Part shown: positions 2,630 to 47,768 of the stretch, one piece after another
How positions within the stretch are numbered: the first letter of the stretch is position 1
Layout of the letters: the number at the start of each line of letters is the position of its first letter
Origin: a virus
Taxonomy: Duplodnaviria; Heunggongvirae; Uroviricota; Caudoviricetes
Virus record (IMG/VR): IMGVR_UViG_3300010370_000025
Direction: 5' to 3' (one strand)
Length of the DNA stretch: 48,803 nucleotides
Translations under genes and position numbers: made by a program
The notes under the pieces: generated by a model
Told to the model about the DNA's origin: nothing
What the model saw: only the letters and a program-made list of their open reading frames with translations
Database searches by the model: none

Positions 2630-3773
2630 TTCTTTTTGTGTGTTGCCTTGGACGCATGTTTGTATTTCTACCACGCAGCAAATAATTCCCTGCTGTAGAT
2701 TTCAGTCTCCTAAACCTAATATAAGTTTAGCTTCTTTAAATAAAAATGGAATAGAAGCACTTAATATTCAAGAATATAGTAAAATTAGAGAAGATATGTT
2801 GCTCGGTAAAAAAATAGAGCAATGTAAAAAGTGTTATTTTGAAGAAGACAACAATATAAGTTCTTATAGAAATTATGCTAAACATTTCTTTTTAAAAGAG
2901 GGTGATGAATTTAAAGATAATAAATTTAAAGAAATGAGATATTTAGAACTTTCTTTAGATAATATTTGTAATCTTCAATGTAGAATGTGCAGTAGCAATT
3001 TTAGTACAAAGTTAATCTTGAGAGATCAAGAGCTATCAAAATATTCATGGAATAAAAACGATTATAGAGCCTATAAAAAACTAGAAATAGATTTTTCTTT
3101 TTTGGATAAAATTGATATAACTAAATTACAAGAAATAAAATTGTTAGGAGGAGAGCCGTTTATGTCTCCTAACTTTAATAAATTTATTGATTATATTATT
3201 AGCAAAATAGCCCCTGAAAATATCACTCTTTTTATTGCTACTAACGGTACTCATAAATTATCTAATGAATTGATTGACAAGTTAAGTAAGTTTAAACTTC
3301 TTAAACTTAGAGTTAGTTTTGATACATATTCAAAAGCTAATGATTACCAGAGATTTGGTAGCTCATATTTAGAGGTTTGGAATAATCTTCTTAAATATAT
3401 TGAAGTGTGGCCAAATGCTGAGATTGGTGTGCATTCAGTTATATCTACTTACAATGCAAATAAATTAGGAATTTCGTTAGAACAATATAAAAAATATAAT
3501 GTTGATTATCGATTAGATTTTGTTCGAAATCAAGAAATGTCTCTCTCTTTTATCCCAGTTGATCTAGCAGAATGGTTAAGAGATAAAAATAGCGAAGATG
3601 AAGTAGCCAGTAAATATATAAACAACATATTAGACGAAAGAGAGTATGCTCCTGATAAATGGGAAATGTTTTTAAAAAATACAAAAATATTAGATAACTT
3701 CTATAACATCTCTTTAAAAGATTATAACCCTGAACTTTATGAGGTTTTAAATAAAAAATATGGATATAGTTAA
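2622..3773 (+). CDS. radical SAM protein with N-terminal twitch/SPASM-like domain
   Basis: N-terminal FCVLPW...PCCR...CKKCY, then CNLQCRMC and LGGEPF. Confidence 0.9.
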   Translation: MNDSFCVLPWTHVCISTTQQIIPCCRFQSPKPNISLASLNKNGIEALNIQEYSKIREDMLLGKKIEQCKKCYFEEDNNISSYRNYAKHFFLKEGDEFKDNKFKEMRYLELSLDNICNLQCRMCSSNFSTKLILRDQELSKYSWNKNDYRAYKKLEIDFSFLDKIDITKLQEIKLLGGEPFMSPNFNKFIDYIISKIAPENITLFIATNGTHKLSNELIDKLSKFKLLKLRVSFDTYSKANDYQRFGSSYLEVWNNLLKYIEVWPNAEIGVHSVISTYNANKLGISLEQYKKYNVDYRLDFVRNQEMSLSFIPVDLAEWLRDKNSEDEVASKYINNILDEREYAPDKWEMFLKNTKILDNFYNISLKDYNPELYEVLNKKYGYS

Positions 3774-8622: not shown

Positions 8623-9062
8623 TTGAAATTATTGATGAATTAAATATTATACCTTTTTGGCAGCAATTGTGGCCAGGAAGACAAATACCTCTTATGAGCT
8701 CTATGCTATTTCCTAAAGGGTATGATATATCAATCTATAAAAAATATAAACCTACTTATTTTGGGTATAGTATAGATGGTAACATTATAGGAGTCAATAG
8801 CGGCCATAAAACAAGCGATACTGATTATAGATCAAGAGGTCTTTTTGTATTACCTGAATTTAGAAACAGAGGTGTTGCAGTTAAACTTTTAGAAGCTACT
8901 ATTAACCAAGCAAAAGAAGAAGATTGCTCTATTGTATGGACAGTTCCTAGAGACACTTCTTTATATGCATACTATAAAGCAGGCTTTGATAGAGCAAGTG
9001 ATTTTTTCGAAACAGAAACTAGTGCAAAAAATTGTTATGCAATTTATAAAATAGATGGCTGA
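8619..9062 (+). CDS. GNAT N-acetyltransferase
   Basis: Motif A LFVLPEFRNRGVAVKLL and motif B YYKAGF. Confidence 0.8.
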   Translation: MIEIIDELNIIPFWQQLWPGRQIPLMSSMLFPKGYDISIYKKYKPTYFGYSIDGNIIGVNSGHKTSDTDYRSRGLFVLPEFRNRGVAVKLLEATINQAKEEDCSIVWTVPRDTSLYAYYKAGFDRASDFFETETSAKNCYAIYKIDG

Positions 9063-10587
9063 TGTAGTAATTTTTACGGAATGCAACGGTAGTATAGGTT
9101 GGGGCAGAGATGCAGGAGCTTATACTGTTGCATCTAGACTTAGAGAAGTTGGATATAATGTTAAGGTGATTGATTTTTTCAGTCACTTTAATTTTAGTAT
9201 GTTTAAAGCCGCTATTGATAATTTTGTAACTAAAGATACTTTATTTTTAGGGTTTAGTTCAACTCATTTTAGCACTCTAAAGCCAGATGAGTGGGAACAA
9301 CATTGGCAGTCTGATAGTAGAACACGTAAAAATAATATGTGGAATGTTTATTTTCCATTTACTCCAGAAGAATTAAACGAATGGTTTAGTTATGCTAAAC
9401 AAAAATATAATAATCTTAAAATAATTGTCGGTGGACAGAAGGTAGCACAAAAACAATCACTACAGAAGAAGTATCCTTTTGTAGATATATGGGTAGGCGG
9501 AATGGCTGATAAAGCTGTAGTAAGTATTGCTAACTCATTAAAAAATAAAGAGATTTTACCTAATAGAATTAAATCAGAACTAGATTATGGAAATATAGAA
9601 GAGAATGTTTTTAACACTAGCAAAATACATTGGGCAGTCGACGACAATATTTTTGCAGGAGAAGCCCTGCCGCTTGAAATTTCAAGAGGATGCCCGTTCG
9701 AATGCGCGTTCTGTGATTACACTAAAAAGAAAACTAATACTTGGACTGTTAAAGCTGACAACTTAAGACAGCAGTTACTTTATAACTACTATATGTTTGA
9801 TGTTACTCATTATATGCTTACCGATTTTCAAATTAATGAAAATATGGATAAGTTAAAGATGATTCATAAAGTGTTTACAAATTTACCTTTTAAGATTACG
9901 TGGTCTGGATTTGGAAGATTAGACCTTATTAAAGCAAAACCTGAGATGGTAGATCTCATTTATGAAAGTGGATGTAGATCTATACAATGGGGTATTGAAA
10001 CTGTTAATGATAGTGTGGGTCCTCTTATTGGTAAAGTAACTAAAAGAGATATTATTGAAAAATCATTAGACTTATGTAAGTCTAAATGGAAAGATGATGT
10101 AGTAATGGGTAGCGGATTCATACTTGGATTACCAGGCGAATCATTACAGTCATGTAAAGAACTTGTTAATTGGACAGAAACACAGCCATGGCTTAATGCA
10201 TGGGAGATAACTCCTTTATATATTGGTACTTACAATAAGGAAAAAGAATATACTATTGACTATAGTAAGATTCAAAAGAATCCAGAGAAGTATGGATATA
10301 AGATTTCTATGGAACTAAATAATAATGGAGTGTATATTGAAGATTGGTCTAACAATGATATGACTAAATCTGCTTTAATTGAGATGATAGAAGAAACACA
10401 AAAAAGTGATGCTTGGCAAAGGCGTATTATGACTTCATATCTCGGGTATAGCCGTTGTAGTAATTTAGGATTCAATCATAGAGAGTTATTGTCTGCTAAT
10501 AAAAATAACAAGACATGGATTAAACAACATGCAGACAACTATAAAAGTTTAGCCAACATTTATTTACAAAAGAATGGTTTAGTATGA
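9055..10587 (+). CDS. B12-binding-domain radical SAM protein
   Basis: N-terminal Rossmann-like GAYTVASRLREVGYNVKVIDF and IIVGG. EISRGCPFECAFC, GIET, FILGLPGES. Confidence 0.85.
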   Translation: MADVVIFTECNGSIGWGRDAGAYTVASRLREVGYNVKVIDFFSHFNFSMFKAAIDNFVTKDTLFLGFSSTHFSTLKPDEWEQHWQSDSRTRKNNMWNVYFPFTPEELNEWFSYAKQKYNNLKIIVGGQKVAQKQSLQKKYPFVDIWVGGMADKAVVSIANSLKNKEILPNRIKSELDYGNIEENVFNTSKIHWAVDDNIFAGEALPLEISRGCPFECAFCDYTKKKTNTWTVKADNLRQQLLYNYYMFDVTHYMLTDFQINENMDKLKMIHKVFTNLPFKITWSGFGRLDLIKAKPEMVDLIYESGCRSIQWGIETVNDSVGPLIGKVTKRDIIEKSLDLCKSKWKDDVVMGSGFILGLPGESLQSCKELVNWTETQPWLNAWEITPLYIGTYNKEKEYTIDYSKIQKNPEKYGYKISMELNNNGVYIEDWSNNDMTKSALIEMIEETQKSDAWQRRIMTSYLGYSRCSNLGFNHRELLSANKNNKTWIKQHADNYKSLANIYLQKNGLV

Positions 10588-12362
10588 GCCGAATAATTAT
10601 TTTAAGTGATATCTATGATGTGCGTGGTACAGGAGGTACAAAATTTCGCTCTCACTTTCTAGAAGAGGAAGAGAGAGAAGATATGATTAACCATGCAAAA
10701 TTAGATAAACTGTTAGATGTAGTATATAACCCTAAATCAAACAGTAATTACGCTACAGGTAAATACGTAGGCTCAAGTAAATATAATTTTTGGACTCGTT
10801 ATATGGGCCCCTATACTATTGCATCAAATATTCGTGAAAAATGTCCTGATTGGGATGTAGTAGTATTAGATTATTTTACTAAATTAGATAATTTTTTTGA
10901 AGTATTTGAGCAGCTAGTTACACCAGATACTAAGTATGTTGCTCTAAGTATCACATTCTTAAATAATCCATTTAATCCTAAACAAAAAGATTTTAATTTA
11001 TGGCATTTTAGCCATCAAGAATGTTTAGATTGGTTTGCTAAAATAAAAAATATAGCTCCTAACGCAGAGATTATTATTGGTGGAGCATTAGTAGATACTT
11101 TTTATAAACAACATATCACTCAAAAGAAAAAATTTGATCTTCCAGAAGCTATGCGTAGGTATGTAAGCTACGCGTTTCATGGTTATGGTGAAAAAACTAT
11201 TGTTAATTTTTTAAATAATACTTTAGATGAAAAACAAGTATTTGAAAAACAAGGTGTAAAGTTTATTAATGAGCCTGCCTTAGCAGGTAAAGGCGCTTTA
11301 ATTAATAGTACTAGATGGACAAGAAACGATGCTATTCAGCCAGGTGAATGGCTTCCGCTAGAAATTTCTAAAGGTTGTCGTTTTGGTTGTAAGTTTTGTT
11401 TCTATGATCATAGCGGCACAGTTATTAAAGATCCAAAAATTCTTAGAGAAGAACTTATCTATAATTATGAAAATTTTGGTACTACAGGCTACCAGCTAAC
11501 TGATGACACTGTGAATGATAGTCCTGCAAAAATTAATATGATGCATGATGTTATTAAGAGTCTACCATTTAATATAGAATGGATAGCTTATACTCGCCCT
11601 GATATGTTTTACAAGTATCCGTGGATGCTAGAAAAAATGCTTGACATGGGCTGTAGAGGTATGTTCTTGGGTGTGGAGACATTTAATCATACAGCAGCTA
11701 AAATTGCCGGTAAAGGATTACACCCAGATAAAATTAAAGATATTATTAGATGGTTAAGAGAAACATGTAAAGATGATGTTTTTATTTTAGCTAGCTTCAT
11801 TATTGGGCTTGTAGGTGAAACAGAAGAATCATTAATGGATACTGCACGTTGGCTTAAAGAACAAAAATATCTCGACAAAGCACAATATGAAATACTTTTT
11901 GTAAGTGATGAAGGGGGTCGCACATCTAATGAGTTTTCAGAAAACTCTAGCAAGTTTGGAATTAGAGAAGTAAGATGGAACCCTGATTATTATTGGAGAC
12001 ATGATACATTAGATCTACCTCAATGTAAGGAGATTGCATTGAAGTGGGAAGATATGATGTCAGAACATTCAATAACTCAGTTTGAAAGACATAGCGACTA
12101 TAATGTTAGTTTTTGGGCTTATCCAAGATTAAGAAGTTTTGGACTGTCACATAAAAATGCTAAAAATGTTCTTAAGTCGCAGGTTGTTCCGGGCGAGGTT
12201 TATAGAAGAAATATCGAGTGGGTCGCTAAATACCATTCAGATATAGTTAACAATAACGGGCTGTCTATATGTCCGCAGAGTAATAAAGAGTGGGCATTTC
12301 CGCCTGATAAGAGTATGCGAAACTCATGGTCTAAAATTAAGTTTGATCAAATAAATGTCTAA
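10584..12362 (+). CDS. B12-binding-domain radical SAM protein
   Basis: GPYTIAS, IIIGG, EISKGCRFGCKFC, GVET, FIIGLVGET. Confidence 0.85.
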   Translation: MSRIIILSDIYDVRGTGGTKFRSHFLEEEEREDMINHAKLDKLLDVVYNPKSNSNYATGKYVGSSKYNFWTRYMGPYTIASNIREKCPDWDVVVLDYFTKLDNFFEVFEQLVTPDTKYVALSITFLNNPFNPKQKDFNLWHFSHQECLDWFAKIKNIAPNAEIIIGGALVDTFYKQHITQKKKFDLPEAMRRYVSYAFHGYGEKTIVNFLNNTLDEKQVFEKQGVKFINEPALAGKGALINSTRWTRNDAIQPGEWLPLEISKGCRFGCKFCFYDHSGTVIKDPKILREELIYNYENFGTTGYQLTDDTVNDSPAKINMMHDVIKSLPFNIEWIAYTRPDMFYKYPWMLEKMLDMGCRGMFLGVETFNHTAAKIAGKGLHPDKIKDIIRWLRETCKDDVFILASFIIGLVGETEESLMDTARWLKEQKYLDKAQYEILFVSDEGGRTSNEFSENSSKFGIREVRWNPDYYWRHDTLDLPQCKEIALKWEDMMSEHSITQFERHSDYNVSFWAYPRLRSFGLSHKNAKNVLKSQVVPGEVYRRNIEWVAKYHSDIVNNNGLSICPQSNKEWAFPPDKSMRNSWSKIKFDQINV

Positions 12363-13915: not shown

Positions 13916-14807
13916 AATTTAATTCTCTAAGAAGAGGAACATCAAACTTTTTAATATAATCTGTAAATTCTGTCATCTTTACTCTATTAGAATATGAAGC
14001 AATTTTATCTCTATATTCTTTATCAAGATCGGAATATAATTCAAATCCTGTTAATTTAGGTCTAGGCTCTAAATCAAACTCTTCCATAGCTAATTGACAT
14101 TTAACTTTATTAATATTAAGATATCTTTGTTTTTTAGCAGTCTCTACCCATCTATAAACCGACTCACGCTGTAAAAACGAAAGCATTAACTCTGGTGTAT
14201 ATTGAAAAAATGAAGGAATAATTTCTTTTTCTTTATTTTGAAAATATAATGCAAGTCTAGTTTCTTTTTCTTGTTCTATATCATATACTTGCAAACTATA
14301 TTTTGTTTCACCTTCATATTTTCTAGAAAGAAAATTCTCCCCCATTCCTAACACAGGTATACTATTAATTTTTTCTATACAATAAGCAAGAAGATTAAGT
14401 TGAGGGCTATTACATTTAGTCCTATATGCCATCTCTACAACTGAATTTTTAAAAAACATCTCTACGTTTATATCAAATATATCAGGAGATATTCCATACT
14501 TTGCGCATAGCCTTAATGCATAGTTAATATCGTGCATGTTAAGATTGCGCTCATATCTTATTATAGTAACTCTAGGAGTAATGCCAGCAGCTATAAAACT
14601 AAGCAACATTATTTCAGAATCAATTCCTCCACTTAAAAGCAGATCTAATTTGTTTCCGTGCTTATCGTAAAGCTCTTTAGCTACATTTATACATTCTTGT
14701 CTAAATGTTTTATGTGATTTAACCTTACCAAATTCAACCTTAAACTCATCTTCGTGATAAATTTTAAGATGATTATTTTTTGTATATTCAAAAATGTTTT
14801 TTTGCAT
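13902..14807 (-). CDS. PP-loop (asparagine-synthase-like) ATP pyrophosphatase
   Basis: LLLSGGIDSE PP-loop. Confidence 0.6.
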   Translation of the reverse strand: MQKNIFEYTKNNHLKIYHEDEFKVEFGKVKSHKTFRQECINVAKELYDKHGNKLDLLLSGGIDSEIMLLSFIAAGITPRVTIIRYERNLNMHDINYALRLCAKYGISPDIFDINVEMFFKNSVVEMAYRTKCNSPQLNLLAYCIEKINSIPVLGMGENFLSRKYEGETKYSLQVYDIEQEKETRLALYFQNKEKEIIPSFFQYTPELMLSFLQRESVYRWVETAKKQRYLNINKVKCQLAMEEFDLEPRPKLTGFELYSDLDKEYRDKIASYSNRVKMTEFTDYIKKFDVPLLRELNYEQN

Positions 14808-16188
14808 ATTCTAAAGCCAGTCCATTTGCTTGTTGACGAGCAGATGTATAATTAACATCGCTTAGGTTCATTTTCATAACTTCACTCATTGGTTTTTGAT
14901 ATGTAGCACTTAGTTCACCTAATAACCAGCCTCCTACACAACAATGAGGATCACACCATTCATTAGCTTGTAAAGCAGCTATCCTTATATGTTCGTGCCA
15001 CAGATTTTTATATTCCCAATTAATCATATTATTAGGTCTAAATTTAATATTATATGTATTATAGTTTCTATCAAACTCGCTCTGATATAGTTTCCCTGAA
15101 ACAGGATTAACATAAAGAGCCCACCATTTCCATCTATACATTTTATTATCTATGAGCCACTGCATATCTTTTTCAAGCTCACTATACGTCCATCCAGGTA
15201 TACCTAATATTAAACCTAAATGCCAATTAATTTTATTATCCCATCTCTCTCTGAGTTTAGGGAGAAAATCTTTTGCATGTGTACCTGACCAACTTTTACC
15301 TACTAGTTTAGCACTGTATGGATTAAATGTTTCTATACCAAAAAACGCGGATCTTAATCCACTTTCTTCTAACATATCTATAGTATGTGGTTTAGCCCAT
15401 AAAAGATCAGCTCTTAAAAATCCTAACCACTCAAGCTCAAACGGAACAGAGTTACGAAGTTTTACTAAATCTTTAAGTTTTTCCTCATCATCATTAATAG
15501 TATCATCTGTATAATAATATTTTGTAACACCCCATCGCTCATAGTTATACATAACTTCATCACGAAGATTTTCAAACGTTCTTGTATATGTACCTTTTTT
15601 CTTACCTATGTAAGGATAACTACAAAATTTACATTTAAATACACAACCTCTTCCAAGCTCTAATGTAAGAACTTCATGAGGATTAATATAATCGTTTTCT
15701 GTATACGTGCGTACAAAATTTTTAATATCGAACGAAGGTCTAACTATCTTAGCTCCAGACTTCTCATCAAAATATTTTAAAATATTATTTTCTGCATAAT
15801 CTGGCATTCTTAGCCATTTTAGATTACTATAAACTGAATTAGCATTTGCTCCTCCTAAAATCCATTCTATATTAGGATACTTGCTTTCTACCTTCTTTCT
15901 TGCTATACTCACCCATTCAGGAACTGGAATCACTACTTTCTTTACACCGTCTTGTATTTCTGTATCTAAATTCCAGAAAGTAGCACTACACCCAATTGCA
16001 TAAGTATCTCTAGTAATATACCTTTCGGTTAATTCCGCTATAATATCTGGTGATAAGTTATAACCGAAATCAATGACCTGTACAGTATATCCGTACTGTC
16101 GTAACCAGCTAGCAACCTGGTATGGTCCACCTGTTCTTAGTATAGAATGCACAATATCTGTGCCAGACCATATGATAAAATTAGCCAT
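14788..16188 (-). CDS. B12-binding-domain radical SAM protein
   Basis: GPYQVASWLRQYGYTVQVIDF, WILGG, ELGRGCVFKCKFC, GIET. Confidence 0.85.
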   Translation of the reverse strand: MANFIIWSGTDIVHSILRTGGPYQVASWLRQYGYTVQVIDFGYNLSPDIIAELTERYITRDTYAIGCSATFWNLDTEIQDGVKKVVIPVPEWVSIARKKVESKYPNIEWILGGANANSVYSNLKWLRMPDYAENNILKYFDEKSGAKIVRPSFDIKNFVRTYTENDYINPHEVLTLELGRGCVFKCKFCSYPYIGKKKGTYTRTFENLRDEVMYNYERWGVTKYYYTDDTINDDEEKLKDLVKLRNSVPFELEWLGFLRADLLWAKPHTIDMLEESGLRSAFFGIETFNPYSAKLVGKSWSGTHAKDFLPKLRERWDNKINWHLGLILGIPGWTYSELEKDMQWLIDNKMYRWKWWALYVNPVSGKLYQSEFDRNYNTYNIKFRPNNMINWEYKNLWHEHIRIAALQANEWCDPHCCVGGWLLGELSATYQKPMSEVMKMNLSDVNYTSARQQANGLALEYAKKHF

Positions 16189-46589: not shown

Positions 46590-46713
46590 AGATTACTCAG
46601 CGTTCTAGATAAGCTGGGGAGACGTCGCGAGAGTAACAAGAGGGAATGCTCGCTAATACAGGATTGCTGACTCAGTTCGCGAAAGGGCTTAACCTGTAAC
46701 GTGTACGGAATAT

Positions 46714-46921: not shown

Positions 46922-46995
46922 TGGGAGATCGTCTAATGGTAGGATAGATGACTTTGACTCATTTGATCGTGGTTCGAGTCCACGTCTCCCAGCCA
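46922..46995 (+). tRNA. tRNA-Gln(TTG)
   Basis: TGGGAGA/TCTCCCA, ATGA-CTTTGAC-TCAT, GCCA. Confidence 0.9.
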
Positions 46996-47000
46996 AGTTT

Positions 47001-47086
47001 AGAGTGAGTTCAGCAAACAATCATTGATTGGTTCAATTCCAATATTTCCTCCTTAGGAAGTCTAGGGCACGGTGCCCATCACTCTG
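47001..47086 (+). ncRNA. CAGCAA-type tRNA-like element 1
   Basis: Closing stem AGAGTGA/TCACTCT, CAGCAA, internal TTGG-TTCAATT-CCAA T-arm-like hairpin. Confidence 0.6.
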
Positions 47087-47094
47087 TAAGTTTT

Positions 47095-47160
47095 AGGATC
47101 CCTACAGCAATTACAGCCGTAGAGGCACTTTTTTAGGGAAAAAGCAAAAAGTGGATCCTG
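47095..47160 (+). ncRNA. armless tRNA-like element 2 (anticodon loop AGG)
   Basis: AGGATCC/GGATCCT, ACAGCAA, CTTTT-TTAGGGA-AAAAG, GCAAAAAG. Confidence 0.65.
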
Positions 47161-47168
47161 TTCGTTTT

Positions 47169-47231
47169 AGGATTGTTACAGCAAATAAAATGCATTTGAC
47201 TTGTAATCAAAAGAAGCAAAAAGCAATCCTG
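47169..47231 (+). ncRNA. armless tRNA-like element 3 (anticodon loop TGT)
   Basis: AGGATTG/CAATCCT, ACAGCAA, TTTGA-CTTGTAA-TCAAA, GCAAAAAG. Confidence 0.7.
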
Positions 47232-47239
47232 TTCTATTT

Positions 47240-47314
47240 GGGGCGTTCGTCTATCGGCTAGGATACATCCCTTTCAAGGATACGAGACGGGTTCGACTCC
47301 CGTACGCCCTACCA
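47240..47314 (+). tRNA. tRNA-Glu(TTC)
   Basis: GGGGCGT/ACGCCCT, ATCC-CTTTCAA-GGAT, CCA. Confidence 0.9.
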
Positions 47315-47333
47315 AACACACGGAGACTATACT

Positions 47334-47768
47334 ATGAAGATTCTTATTATGGGGTTGCCTGGTTCAGGTAAGACTACACTAGCAGTAGAACTAGCAAAGC
47401 TTTTAAAAGCAGTGCATTGGAATGCTGATAGCGTTAGACAAAATATTAATACTCATTTAGGGTTTTCAGAAGAAGATAGAATTGAACAAGCCCGTAGAAT
47501 GGGATGGCTCTGCGATCAAGTCGTAAATAGTGGTCATGCCGCTATTGCTGACTTTGTTTGTCCTACATTGAAAACACGTGTTGCATTTGGTCCTAGTGAT
47601 TATATAATCTGGATGGATACTATTCAAGAAAGCCGTTTTGATGATACAAATAAACTGTTCGTTAAACCTGCTAAATATAGTTTTCGCGTAGATTCTTTAA
47701 ATGCCAGTTATTGGTCATATGATATCTACGATCAGATTATGAAAAGGCAGCAATATGTGGAACAATAA
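47334..47768 (+). CDS. adenylyl-sulfate (APS) kinase-like P-loop kinase
   Basis: MGLPGSGKTTLA, NADSVR, FSEEDRIEQARR, DFVCPT. Confidence 0.8.
   Translation: MKILIMGLPGSGKTTLAVELAKLLKAVHWNADSVRQNINTHLGFSEEDRIEQARRMGWLCDQVVNSGHAAIADFVCPTLKTRVAFGPSDYIIWMDTIQESRFDDTNKLFVKPAKYSFRVDSLNASYWSYDIYDQIMKRQQYVEQ

What the first reader, a model, noticed from the sequence alone, without database searches (positions are those of the whole stretch)
47001..47231. Tandem armless tRNA-like RNAs that keep a canonical anticodon stem-loop
Three adjacent elements share this layout: TTT, a perfect 7-bp closing stem starting AG, (A)CAGCAA, a variable core, the complementary strand, then G. Element 3 holds a textbook tRNA-Thr(UGU) arm (TTTGA-CT-TGT-AA-TCAAA). 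Element 2 holds a Pro-like arm (CTTTT-TT-AGG-GA-AAAAG, with G37). Both have GCA before and GCAAAAAG after the arm, and no D- or T-arm. Element 1 instead carries a T-arm-like hairpin. The closing stems differ in sequence but stay paired, which indicates selection on structure. None encodes CCA, unlike all 12 true tRNAs here. Inference: an undescribed class of mini-tRNA or anticodon decoys. They could titrate anticodon nucleases or modification enzymes, act as substrates for the radical SAM cluster, or serve as repair or splint modules. This is the best candidate for a new system in the window.
Basis: partly seen in the sequence, partly recalled or inferred. Interest (0 to 1): 0.85.

Follow-up and report, generated by a model that had tools for sequence, protein, structure and literature searches.

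The report
Phage Y-like RNAs with CAGCAA handle
The three "armless tRNAs" are real small structured RNAs of a large, uncatalogued phage family that shares one stem-plus-CAGCAA "handle", carries look-alikes of tRNA parts, and in other phages sits just upstream of a ring-shaped Ro60-like protein gene, so they are most likely that protein's partner ("Y-like") RNAs rather than mini-tRNAs.

Summary
E1 (47001-47086), E2 (47095-47160) and E3 (47169-47231) lie between tRNA-Gln and tRNA-Glu. Each has a perfect 7-bp terminal helix, (A)CAGCAA, a variable core, and a G after the helix.

They are not a local oddity. One narrow handle pattern found at least 120 viral contigs. Of 178 seeds, 157 are closed by an exact 7-nt complement, and 156 of these are followed by G. 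Stem positions 6-7 covary.

The cargo is modular: anticodon-arm mimics, T-arm hairpins, permuted tRNA bodies that hit Rfam YrlA below threshold, and larger RNAs. In 50 of 120 loci a DUF2828/DUF7788 protein is present. Its model matches Ro60 structures. Elements are always on its strand, and the nearest one is upstream in 50/50 loci. E2 and E3 homologues (86% identity, two compensatory stem changes) lie 329 nt upstream of such a gene in another contig.

The handle also matches Dictyostelium Class I RNAs (Rfam RF01414, below threshold).

Weak points: no Ro60-like gene lies in this window or in 3.6 kb beyond it, discrete RNAs are not shown, and E2's "anticodon" loop is not conserved.

This scan reached the same reading on many other genomes. 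I found no paper or Rfam family that describes the RNA family. I class it as a new variant of the Ro60/Y-RNA kind.

The parts
47001..47086 (+). E1: handle RNA, 86 nt. Terminal helix AGAGTGA/TCACTCT, GTT-CAGCAA, then three cargo hairpins. The first is T-arm-like (47027-47043).
   Evidence: (MFE -24.5, z -2.78). The handle layout matches the family, but the short-class model R1 does not detect it.
47095..47160 (+). E2: handle RNA, 66 nt. Helix AGGATCC/GGATCCT, ACAGCAA (47104-47110), two cargo hairpins (GCC-GUAGA-GGC and CUUUU-loop-AAAAG), A-rich 3' linker.
   Evidence: R1 51.2 bits; RF01414 20.2 bits, full length. The homologue in L166 has two compensatory changes in the helix.
47169..47231 (+). 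E3: handle RNA, 63 nt. Helix AGGATTG/CAATCCT, ACAGCAA (47178-47184), 3-bp helix UGC (47191-47193)/GCA (47216-47218), anticodon-arm mimic 47195-47211 with loop CUUGUAA.
   Evidence: tRNA 22.2 bits, below GA 29; RF01414 21.3 bits; R1 77.9 bits; near-identical homologue in L166.
46922..46995 (+). tRNA-Gln(UUG) with encoded CCA. E1 starts 6 nt after it, which is the usual family context (CCA-R-UUUU-handle).
47240..47314 (+). tRNA-Glu(UUC), which starts 9 nt after E3. The elements sit inside the same-strand tRNA array.
   Evidence: No promoter-like or terminator-like site lies between 46590 and 47330 on the + strand.

Best explanation
E1-E3 are three members of a widespread phage family of small non-coding RNAs built like Y RNAs.

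The constant 'handle' has four parts: a terminal helix of 7 bp or more that joins the 5' and 3' ends, a single-stranded (A/U)CAGCAA right after the 5' strand, an A-rich stretch before the 3' strand, and the ending CUG-U. The handle clamps a variable cargo. In E3 the cargo is a tRNA-Thr(UGU)-type anticodon arm. In E1 it is a T-arm-like hairpin plus two further hairpins. In E2 it is two hairpins.

Proposed steps:
1. The RNAs are made as part of the tRNA polycistron.
2. They are cut out at the conserved borders (after the U-run, and after CUG).
3. The handle is bound by a ring-shaped Ro60-like protein (Pfam DUF2828+DUF7788, a helical-repeat ring plus a vWA/MIDAS domain). This phage would have to encode that protein outside the 52 kb seen here.
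4. The cargo then acts as an adaptor or decoy. It presents a tRNA part to proteins that recognise tRNAs, such as nucleases of host defence, repair or modification enzymes, or exonucleases. This is how Y RNAs tether or gate Ro60.

Shown here: the family, its covariation, its modular cargo, its linkage to the Ro60-like gene, and the Ro60 fold of that protein's model. Inferred: processing, binding and the role of the cargo.
For: Family:
- The pattern TTTAGGATNNNNACAGCAA found at least 120 viral contigs, often with 2-4 copies each.
- 157/178 seeds are closed by the exact complement of the 7-nt stem, and 156/157 are followed by G.
- Borders are conserved as CCA-R-UUUU | AGG ... CCUG | UU.
- Stem pairs 6 and 7 each show four pair types. 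The covariation score is 0.335 against 0.094 in shuffles and 0.08 or less when partners are slid.

Link to Y RNAs:
- The 111-131-nt class has the YrlA order (handle, hairpin, T arm, capped acceptor-like stem, D arm, handle). It hits RF02553 over its full length at 30.8-37.9 bits.

Protein:
- A 471-aa ORF family occurs in 50/120 loci and matches DUF2828+DUF7788. It has an invariant DxSxS motif.
- The AF2 model has pLDDT 82. Its 12 best PDB matches are all Ro60/TROVE structures, at E down to 4e-9 and TM about 0.6.

Linkage:
- 79/79 elements are on the gene's strand. The nearest element is upstream in 50/50 loci and within 400 nt in 32.
- The gene is present in 5/5 long element-bearing records.
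- Among 10 records not chosen for elements, the only one with R1 RNA hits also has the gene, and 8 have neither.
- E2 and E3 homologues (86% over 147 nt, while the flanking genes are about 46% identical at the protein level) lie 329 nt upstream of the gene in L166.
- Model R1 finds members next to the gene in Synechococcus phage BUCT-ZZ01 (47.5 bits), Mycobacterium phage Samty (44.2 bits) and Felix O1-type wV8 (20.7 bits).

Precedent:
- Ro60 with Y RNAs in bacteria and phages (PMC4201824; PMC12135203).
- A Ro60-like protein of phage Bas63 lies upstream of its tRNA array and counters the Ppl defence. Its authors guessed that some of the 'tRNAs' there are Y RNAs (bioRxiv 10.1101/2024.10.10.617714).
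Against: - No Ro60-like gene lies in the window or in the 3.6 kb beyond it. The rest of this genome is not available.
- The closest complete relative (80% DNA polymerase identity) has neither the RNAs nor the gene. The cassette is therefore accessory, and its state in this phage is unknown.
- One element-bearing record, 71% complete, lacks the gene. One record has the gene but no R1 hit.
- Binding is inferred from linkage only. The Ro-binding motif of known Y RNAs (GNCGAA / CGAA) is absent.
- Discrete processed RNAs are not shown. RNA-library contigs bridge E1-E3, tRNA-Glu and the next ORF, and they could come from DNA carry-over.
- In the preprint, Bas63 gp130 alone, expressed without phage RNAs, rescued T7. 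At least that activity may not need these RNAs.
Confidence: 0.6

Rival explanations
1. Protein-independent decoys. The RNAs act alone as mimics of the anticodon arm or T arm. They soak up host anticodon nucleases or tRNA-modifying enzymes, and the handle serves only for stability.
For: - About half of the short family members have a canonical anticodon-loop signature, with many different anticodons (UUU, UGU, GUA, GCA, UGA, GCU, UCU and others).
- E3's loop equals that of the phage's tRNA-Thr(UGU).
- The window shows the RNAs without a nearby Ro60-like gene.
Against: - The invariant CAGCAA and the conserved termini point to sequence-specific recognition of the handle itself.
- Cargoes that are not tRNA-like (150-260 nt) use the same handle.
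- The linkage to the Ro60-like gene is strict.
- E2's loop is not conserved.
Confidence: 0.12
2. Processing punctuation. The elements are acceptor-stem-like spacers that guide RNase P, RNase Z or RNase E cleavage of the tRNA polycistron, and they have no function in trans.
For: - They sit 5-9 nt from tRNA ends.
- The consensus CCA-R-UUUU lies before the helix, and G-UU after it resembles a discriminator plus trailer.
- There is no promoter or terminator of their own.
Against: - Many tRNA junctions in the same arrays lack them.
- Cargo is conserved and covaries: the ASL helix is 80% paired and 5/5 of its pairs covary.
- E2 and E3 are more conserved than the neighbouring proteins.
- Elements also stand directly before the Ro60-like ORF, away from tRNAs.
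- The same handle occurs on separately transcribed Dictyostelium Class I RNAs (PMC7919456).
Confidence: 0.08
3. Decayed or truly armless tRNAs. They are either pseudogenes left by deletions in a tRNA array, or minimal tRNAs that are charged and used in translation.
For: - E3 aligns end to end with the Rfam tRNA model at 22.2 bits (acceptor stem, D-like hairpin, anticodon arm).
Against: - The score is below the tRNA threshold and ARAGORN does not call them.
- There is no CCA, although all 12 tRNAs encode it.
- There is no T arm.
- The conserved CAGCAA has no tRNA counterpart.
- Conservation and compensatory changes across distant phages argue against pseudogenes.
- The same handle carries non-tRNA cargo.
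Confidence: 0.04
4. A DNA-level or cis-acting element: a miniature inverted-repeat element with a GTTTT target duplication, a recombination site, or a leader that regulates the downstream gene.
For: - Inverted termini are flanked by GTTTT / GTT(T)T.
- Many copies lie 12-400 nt upstream of the Ro60-like ORF.
- In Vibrio phage ValKK3, ACAGCAA lies in the leader of that gene.
Against: - Strand bias is complete: 79/79 elements are on the gene's strand.
- Cargo has RNA-type structure, including T loops and capped stems.
- Covariation keeps pairing, not sequence.
- In this window the elements precede a tRNA, not an ORF.
Confidence: 0.03

Closest known systems
Ro60 (Rsr) with Y RNAs of bacteria and phages: YrlA/YrlB (Rfam RF02553; Chen et al. 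2014, PMC4201824) and Thermus phage phiLo Ro60 with Yrl1/Yrl2 (PMC12135203)
   Same: - The RNA ends pair into a stem that carries a conserved motif next to an internal loop.
- The effector part is variable and can mimic a tRNA in the order T arm, capped acceptor-like stem, D arm.
- Several RNAs are encoded beside a ring-plus-vWA protein, often in tRNA or RNA-repair contexts.
- The partner's model superposes on Ro60 structures.
   Different: - The motif is CAGCAA, not GNCGAA/CGAA.
- The protein matches Pfam DUF2828+DUF7788, not TROVE (0/5 records).
- No PDB chain matched it by sequence (phmmer, E <= 1).
- E2 and E3 carry no tRNA body. E3 carries an anticodon arm, which YrlA lacks.
- YrlA scores for the related class are 31-38 bits, against a threshold of 69.
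Class I RNAs of Dictyostelium (Rfam RF01414; Kjellin et al. 2021, PMC7919456)
   Same: - Length is about 60 nt.
- A short terminal stem covaries.
- A conserved motif holding ACAGCAA lies right after the 5' strand, followed by a variable middle and an A-rich 3' part.
- Ends are conserved as (A)AG...CUGU.
- E3, E2 and other members align over the full length of the model.
   Different: - Scores are 20-25.5 bits, against a threshold of 41.5.
- Class I RNAs are eukaryotic, each with its own promoter (DUSE).
- Their reported direct binder is an RRM protein (Rnp1A).
- They are published as unique to dictyostelids.
- Common descent is not shown here.
Bas63 (Felix O1-type) gp130, a Ro60-like counter-defence protein (bioRxiv 10.1101/2024.10.10.617714)
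   Same: - It is a Ro60-like protein encoded directly upstream of a phage tRNA array, as in wV8.
- Its authors suggested that some annotated tRNAs there are Y RNAs.
   Different: - The preprint does not define the RNAs.
- gp130 alone sufficed against Ppl.
- I did not verify that gp130 belongs to the DUF2828 family. I infer it only from the wV8 layout.
Phage T4 stable RNAs rnaC and rnaD (species 1 and 2) in the tRNA cluster
   Same: - They are small stable RNAs of unknown function, co-located with phage tRNAs in a T4-type genome.
- rnaC has a T arm and a closing stem formed by its ends.
   Different: - They have no CAGCAA handle and no sequence similarity.
- No Ro60-like gene is annotated in the 5-kb stretch around them that I fetched.
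Armless mitochondrial tRNAs (nematodes, mites); from my own knowledge
   Same: - They have an acceptor-like stem plus an anticodon arm, without a T arm.
   Different: - Those RNAs are charged and used in translation, and they have no CAGCAA motif.
- Here there is no CCA, the handle is shared with non-tRNA cargo, and the RNAs are linked to a Ro60-like gene.

Membership tests
tRNA (Rfam RF00005) | Cloverleaf scoring at or above the gathering score of 29 bits, or called by ARAGORN | tested here: not met
   E3 scores 22.2 bits. E1 and E2 have no hit at E<=10. ARAGORN calls none of the three.
tRNA (Rfam RF00005) | T arm, and a 3' CCA (encoded in every tRNA of this phage) | tested here: not met
   E2 and E3 have no T arm. 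None of the three has CCA, while 12/12 tRNAs have it.
YrlA-type Y RNA (Rfam RF02553) | Score at or above 69 bits, with a tRNA-like domain (T arm, acceptor-like stem-loop, D arm) | tested here: not met
   E1-E3 have no YrlA hit at E<=10. Sister members with the same handle score 30.8-37.9 bits over the full length.
YrlA-type Y RNA (Rfam RF02553) | GNCGAAN0-1G (CGAA) motif near the 5' end | tested here: not met
   CAGCAA stands at that position instead.
YrlA-type Y RNA (Rfam RF02553) | Encoded within a few kb of a Ro60 orthologue, on the same strand | tested here: inconclusive
   Not met in the window plus 3.6 kb. Met for the E2/E3 homologues in L166 and in 50/50 loci, but with a Ro60-like DUF2828 protein rather than TROVE.
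Dictyostelium Class I RNA (Rfam RF01414) | Score at or above 41.5 bits | tested here: not met
   E3 scores 21.3 and E2 20.2. Other members score 23-25.5 bits.
Dictyostelium Class I RNA (Rfam RF01414) | Short terminal stem, a conserved motif with ACAGCAA next to its 5' strand, length 42-65 nt, ends AAG...CUGU | tested here: met
   The stem is 7 bp and ACAGCAA lies 2 nt after it. E3 is 63 nt and E2 is 66 nt. Ends are AG...CUGU (PMC7919456).
Dictyostelium Class I RNA (Rfam RF01414) | DUSE promoter about 60 nt upstream, in a dictyostelid genome | tested here: not met
   The context is a phage tRNA array with no promoter of its own.
CAGCAA-handle RNAs (uncatalogued family, as defined here) | Terminal helix of 7 bp or more, CAGCAA 2-3 nt after the 5' strand, an A-rich 3' linker, and G then U after the 3' strand | tested here: met
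   All three elements meet these. E2 and E3 score 51.2 and 77.9 bits with model R1, but both were in its training set. E1 meets the features but R1 does not find it.
CAGCAA-handle RNAs (uncatalogued family, as defined here) | Same strand as phage tRNA genes and next to them, co-occurring with a DUF2828 Ro60-like gene in the genome | tested here: inconclusive
   The tRNA context is met. The gene is not seen in the 52 kb available, and the whole genome is not held.
Ro60/TROVE protein family (partner protein, in related loci) | Helical-repeat ring plus a C-terminal vWA domain with a MIDAS motif | tested here: met
   The AF2 model (pLDDT 82) has all 12 of its top PDB matches in Ro60 structures, aligned over the full length at TM 0.5-0.63. 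DxSxS is invariant.
Ro60/TROVE protein family (partner protein, in related loci) | Match to Pfam TROVE (PF05731) | tested here: not met
   0/5 element-bearing records match PF05731. The protein matches PF11443+PF25043 instead.

The most novel reading that the evidence does not exclude
The CAGCAA handle is the binding tag of an ancient, uncatalogued branch of the Ro60/Y-RNA particle (DUF2828-type ring protein plus handle RNAs). This branch would span phages of many bacterial phyla and reach eukaryotes, and the orphan 'Class I' RNAs of Dictyostelium would be its members. In phages, interchangeable cargoes such as E3's anticodon arm would aim the particle at, or shield tRNAs from, host proteins that attack or handle specific tRNA parts. 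A tRNA array would then carry its own programmable counter-defence RNAs.
Probability: 0.15. Interest if true: 0.88.

Novelty: new variant of a known kind. Interest (0 to 1): 0.68.

Why it matters
- Phage tRNA islands are usually annotated as tRNAs plus junk spacers. Here the spacers hold a large, conserved RNA family that neither Rfam nor any paper I could find describes. It has a likely protein partner, present in at least 710 sequenced phages, whose only published phenotype is counter-defence.
- If the pairing holds, it gives Ro60-like phage proteins their missing RNAs.
- It would explain many 'odd tRNAs' in phage genomes.
- It offers a natural scaffold (handle plus swappable cargo).
- It turns the 20-year-old question of what Dictyostelium Class I RNAs do into a testable one.
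- For this window, it predicts a Ro60-like gene elsewhere in the phage genome.

Tried and rejected
- **Known ribozymes or RNA families.** Rfam at E<=10 gives only sub-threshold tRNA and Class I hits. An HDV-like/theta topology does not fit, because no P1 3' strand can be placed (checked by eye). I see no hammerhead core either.
- **CRISPR-like repeats** (from the GTTTTAG start). Spacing is irregular and the 'spacer' ends pair with the 'repeat' starts.
- **MITE with target duplication.** Rejected because of the complete strand bias and the RNA-type covariation.
- **Relatives via the neighbouring kinase gene.** The 80 loci hold no homologous element.
- **Exact 36-mer of E3 in viral contigs.** No hit.
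- **blastn against isolate phages.** Only tRNA matches.
- **Classical TROVE domain.** 0/5 records.
- **PDB by sequence for the partner protein.** No match.
- **Ro60-like gene in the window, in L216, and in the held stretches of L201 and L202.** None by tblastn or HMM. A whole-record search of the L201 and L202 records also found none.
- **RNA evidence.** Two metatranscriptome runs hold exact contigs over 47011-47395 and 47014-47164. They are contigs only, bridge several genes, and may be DNA carry-over. They give no ends, no strand and no level.
- **T4 rnaC/rnaD.** No CAGCAA handle.
- **Anti-Shine-Dalgarno mimic in E1** (CCUCCUUA, 47049-47056). One of the C's is deleted in a related RNA-library contig, so I dropped this.
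- **Spacer 46590-46713.** Not more structured than shuffles.
- **Papers not held.** Burroughs & Aravind 2016, two Wolin-lab reviews, and Avesson et al. 2011.
- **Not verified.** Whether Bas63 gp130 belongs to the DUF2828 family, and whether Dictyostelium has a DUF2828 gene.

Full report
**Setting.** The window is a fragment of a T4-type cyanophage-like genome. Its family B DNA polymerase is 52% identical to those of marine Synechococcus myoviruses. No whole genome is held. From about 45.7 kb onward the + strand carries a tRNA array: 10 of the window's 12 tRNAs, all with encoded CCA. A metagenome contig 99.97% identical to the window's end extends it by 3.6 kb and adds nine more tRNAs.

**Observation.** The three elements are exactly as described. 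E1 is 47001-47086, E2 is 47095-47160 and E3 is 47169-47231.
- Each starts after a U-run with a 7-nt strand (AGAGTGA, AGGATCC, AGGATTG).
- Each has (A)CAGCAA two or three bases later, then a variable core, then the perfect complement of the first strand, then G.
- Single-sequence folds keep the closing helix.
- E3's core holds a 5-bp stem with the loop CUUGUAA. This is the same loop as in the phage's own tRNA-Thr(UGU) just beyond the window.
- E1 holds a T-arm-like hairpin.
- Rfam has no family above threshold. E3 reaches 22.2 bits on tRNA, and E3 and E2 reach 21.3 and 20.2 bits on Dictyostelium Class I RNA, all over the full length of the model.

- Of 178 seeds in these loci, 157 are closed within 400 nt by the exact complement of their first seven bases, and 156 of those are followed by G. 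Chance would give well under 1%.
- The borders are conserved. The consensus is CCA-R-UUUU before the helix, so the element starts 5 nt after a tRNA's CCA, and UU follows the closing G.
- A G-free stretch follows CAGCAA and an A-run precedes the 3' strand.
- On an alignment of 59 short members, helix pairs 6 and 7 each show four Watson-Crick types. The cargo hairpin is 80% paired with changes on both sides at all five pairs. The covariation score (0.335) exceeds all 500 shuffles and all slid controls.

**Modular cargo.** Lengths fall into classes.
- 50-64 nt: one hairpin, usually like an anticodon arm.
- 75-104 nt: T-arm hairpins, or a whole cloverleaf body whose acceptor stem is replaced by the handle.
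- 111-131 nt: a permuted tRNA body in the order hairpin, T arm, capped acceptor-like stem, D arm.
- 150-260 nt: conserved larger RNAs without any Rfam match.

The permuted class folds strongly (z about -5). It aligns end to end with Rfam YrlA, the bacterial Y RNA, at 31-38 bits, below the 69-bit threshold. Among 67 distinct short members, 48 have a 5-bp stem with a 7-nt loop (7.5 in shuffles). Of these, 33 also have U at loop position 2 and a purine at position 6 (1.3 in shuffles), with at least 15 'anticodons'. It is only one cargo type among several. E2's loop changes to a 6-nt loop in two relatives.

**The partner gene.** I clustered all ORFs of the 120 loci. The commonest family, in 50 loci, is a 471-aa protein that matches Pfam DUF2828 plus DUF7788.
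- Its alignment has an invariant DxSxS MIDAS motif.
- An AlphaFold2 model of the copy next to the E3 homologue (pLDDT 82, pTM 0.78) has all 12 of its best PDB matches in Ro60/TROVE proteins: Xenopus and human Ro60, Deinococcus Rsr, and Thermus phage phiLo Ro60. These are full-length matches with E down to 4e-9.
- The classical TROVE model finds nothing in five element-bearing records, while DUF2828 is found in all five.
- All 79 elements in the 50 loci are on the gene's strand. The nearest one is upstream in 50/50 loci and within 400 nt in 32.
- In ten long records reached through unrelated genes, eight have neither RNA nor gene, one has both, and one has the gene without a hit of my narrow model.
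- The protein family occurs in 710 isolate phages: Felix O1-type, Listeria, Staphylococcus and Campylobacter phages, KVP40-type vibriophages, mycobacteriophages (annotated there as 'Ro-like RNA binding protein') and Synechococcus phage BUCT-ZZ01.
- A covariance model of the short class finds members beside that gene in BUCT-ZZ01, in Mycobacterium phage Samty and, weakly, in wV8. By eye, Samty has three in a row: one plain, one YrlA-like, and one with a Ser(GCU)-type anticodon arm.

**Link to this window.** A 16-kb viral contig (L166) carries homologues of E2 and E3, in tandem, 86% identical over 147 nt. By blastn only tRNAs are otherwise shared, and a neighbouring ORF is 46% identical at the protein level.
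- E3 is almost unchanged.
- E2's helix differs by two compensatory changes (A-U to G-C and C-G to A-U), and ACAGCAA becomes UCAGCAA, which leaves CAGCAA as the core.
- These homologues lie 329 nt upstream of the Ro60-like gene on the same strand, with two further weaker hits of model R1 (23.6 bits each, non-AGGAU stems) in between.
- In the window itself, and in the 3.6 kb beyond it, no such gene exists.
- The closest complete relative (80% polymerase identity) has neither RNAs nor gene.
- The partner claim for this phage is therefore a prediction, not an observation.

**Comparison with what is known.**
- Y RNAs bind Ro60 through a stem formed by their ends. Bacterial YrlA adds a tRNA-like domain, and phage versions are known (PMC4201824; PMC12135203).
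- The present family has the same architecture and gene linkage. It differs in its motif (CAGCAA, not CGAA), in its protein family by sequence, and in having cargoes that YrlA lacks, notably the anticodon arm.
- The handle also agrees in detail with Dictyostelium Class I RNAs: a 6-bp covarying terminal stem, an adjacent motif containing ACAGCAA, an A-rich 3' part, ends AAG...CUGU and a length near 60 nt. These RNAs are published as unique to dictyostelids and their function is unknown (PMC7919456).
- In 65 kb searched (both strands), all four RF01414 hits fell on handle elements. The scores stay below threshold, so I treat common descent as a lead.
- A preprint shows that the Ro60-like gp130 of the Felix O1-type phage Bas63, encoded just upstream of its tRNA array, counters the Ppl defence. 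It guesses that some 'tRNAs' there are Y RNAs. It does not define them, and gp130 alone was sufficient.
- T4's long-known stable RNAs C and D are an analogue in position only.

**Mechanism.** Layout suggests co-transcription with the tRNAs, since there is no promoter or terminator nearby. RNA-library contigs bridge the elements and tRNA-Glu, which is weak evidence. The conserved borders suggest excision to 60-90-nt RNAs. I propose that the handle is the binding site of the Ro60-like ring. I propose that the cargo presents a tRNA part to tRNA-recognising proteins, as a tether or a decoy. Only the family, its structure and the gene linkage are shown. Binding and role are inferred.

**Earlier notes of this scan.** After I had found the gene linkage on my own, look-ups showed that other agents reached the same 'Ro60-like protein with CAGCAA-handle RNAs' reading on many other genomes. 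These notes pointed me to the meaning of my Class I hits and to the Bas63 preprint, both of which I then checked. One note records that a later check kept the observation but gave its bold reading low odds. I have set the odds of the novel case accordingly.

Noticed in passing
window:47334-48117: The P-loop kinase (APS-kinase/AAA_33-like, 144 aa) and the next ORF (120 aa, cytidylyltransferase-like) together match one 230-aa PHROG family (phrog_10255). Here they are two ORFs that overlap by 14 nt, so this is either a split or frameshifted gene or a real two-gene form. The relatives fetched from viral contigs matched mostly the N-terminal 120-140 residues of the kinase ORF.
   Followed up: partly
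window:24919-26949: A 676-aa CHASE2 sensor fused to an adenylate/guanylate cyclase domain, encoded in a phage. It matches a PHROG of unknown function at 746 bits.
   Followed up: no
window:1-16200: A low-GC block (28-32%, against 41-45% near the tRNA array). It holds three radical SAM proteins (9055-10587, 10584-12362 and 14788-16188 on the minus strand) that have no PHROG match.
   Followed up: no
L085, L104, L112, L115, L134, L138, L162 (for example L112:2420-2584 and 2593-2819): Two conserved larger RNAs (about 150-170 nt and about 226-233 nt) use the same AGGAU...ACAGCAA handle. They stand in tandem 12-85 nt upstream of the Ro60-like gene. No Rfam family matches them.
   Followed up: partly
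L170:3542-4006: A GOLLD RNA (RF02032, 226 bits) with an embedded tRNA (3606-3677) lies in the same phage tRNA island as handle RNAs and a Ro60-like gene.
   Followed up: no
L217:4575-4830 (Synechococcus phage BUCT-ZZ01): Two tRNA-like genes downstream of the Ro60-like gene share a repeated insert of about 29 nt (GCATTCTGTAAAGAATGAATTCTGCAATC). Rfam calls one of them as a 114-nt tRNA. The inserts may be intervening sequences.
   Followed up: no
L219:3478-3744 (Mycobacterium phage Samty): Three unannotated handle RNAs lie directly downstream of the annotated 'Ro-like RNA binding protein'. One is a permuted tRNA (YrlA 37.9 bits). One carries a Ser(GCU)-type anticodon arm. They overlap an annotated hypothetical ORF (gene 55).
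   Followed up: partly
window:47049-47056: E1's second hairpin contains CCUCCUUA, the same letters as the 3' end of 16S rRNA. One of the C's is deleted in a related RNA-library contig, so this is probably chance.
   Followed up: partly
L216:1-3623 (beyond the window's 3' end): The tRNA array goes on with Trp, Ala, Gly, Tyr, Ile, Thr(UGU), Thr(AGU), Met and Cys. Between them lie a phosphomannomutase-like ORF, a HAD-phosphatase-like ORF and a BPL_N/GATase-like ORF.
   Followed up: partly
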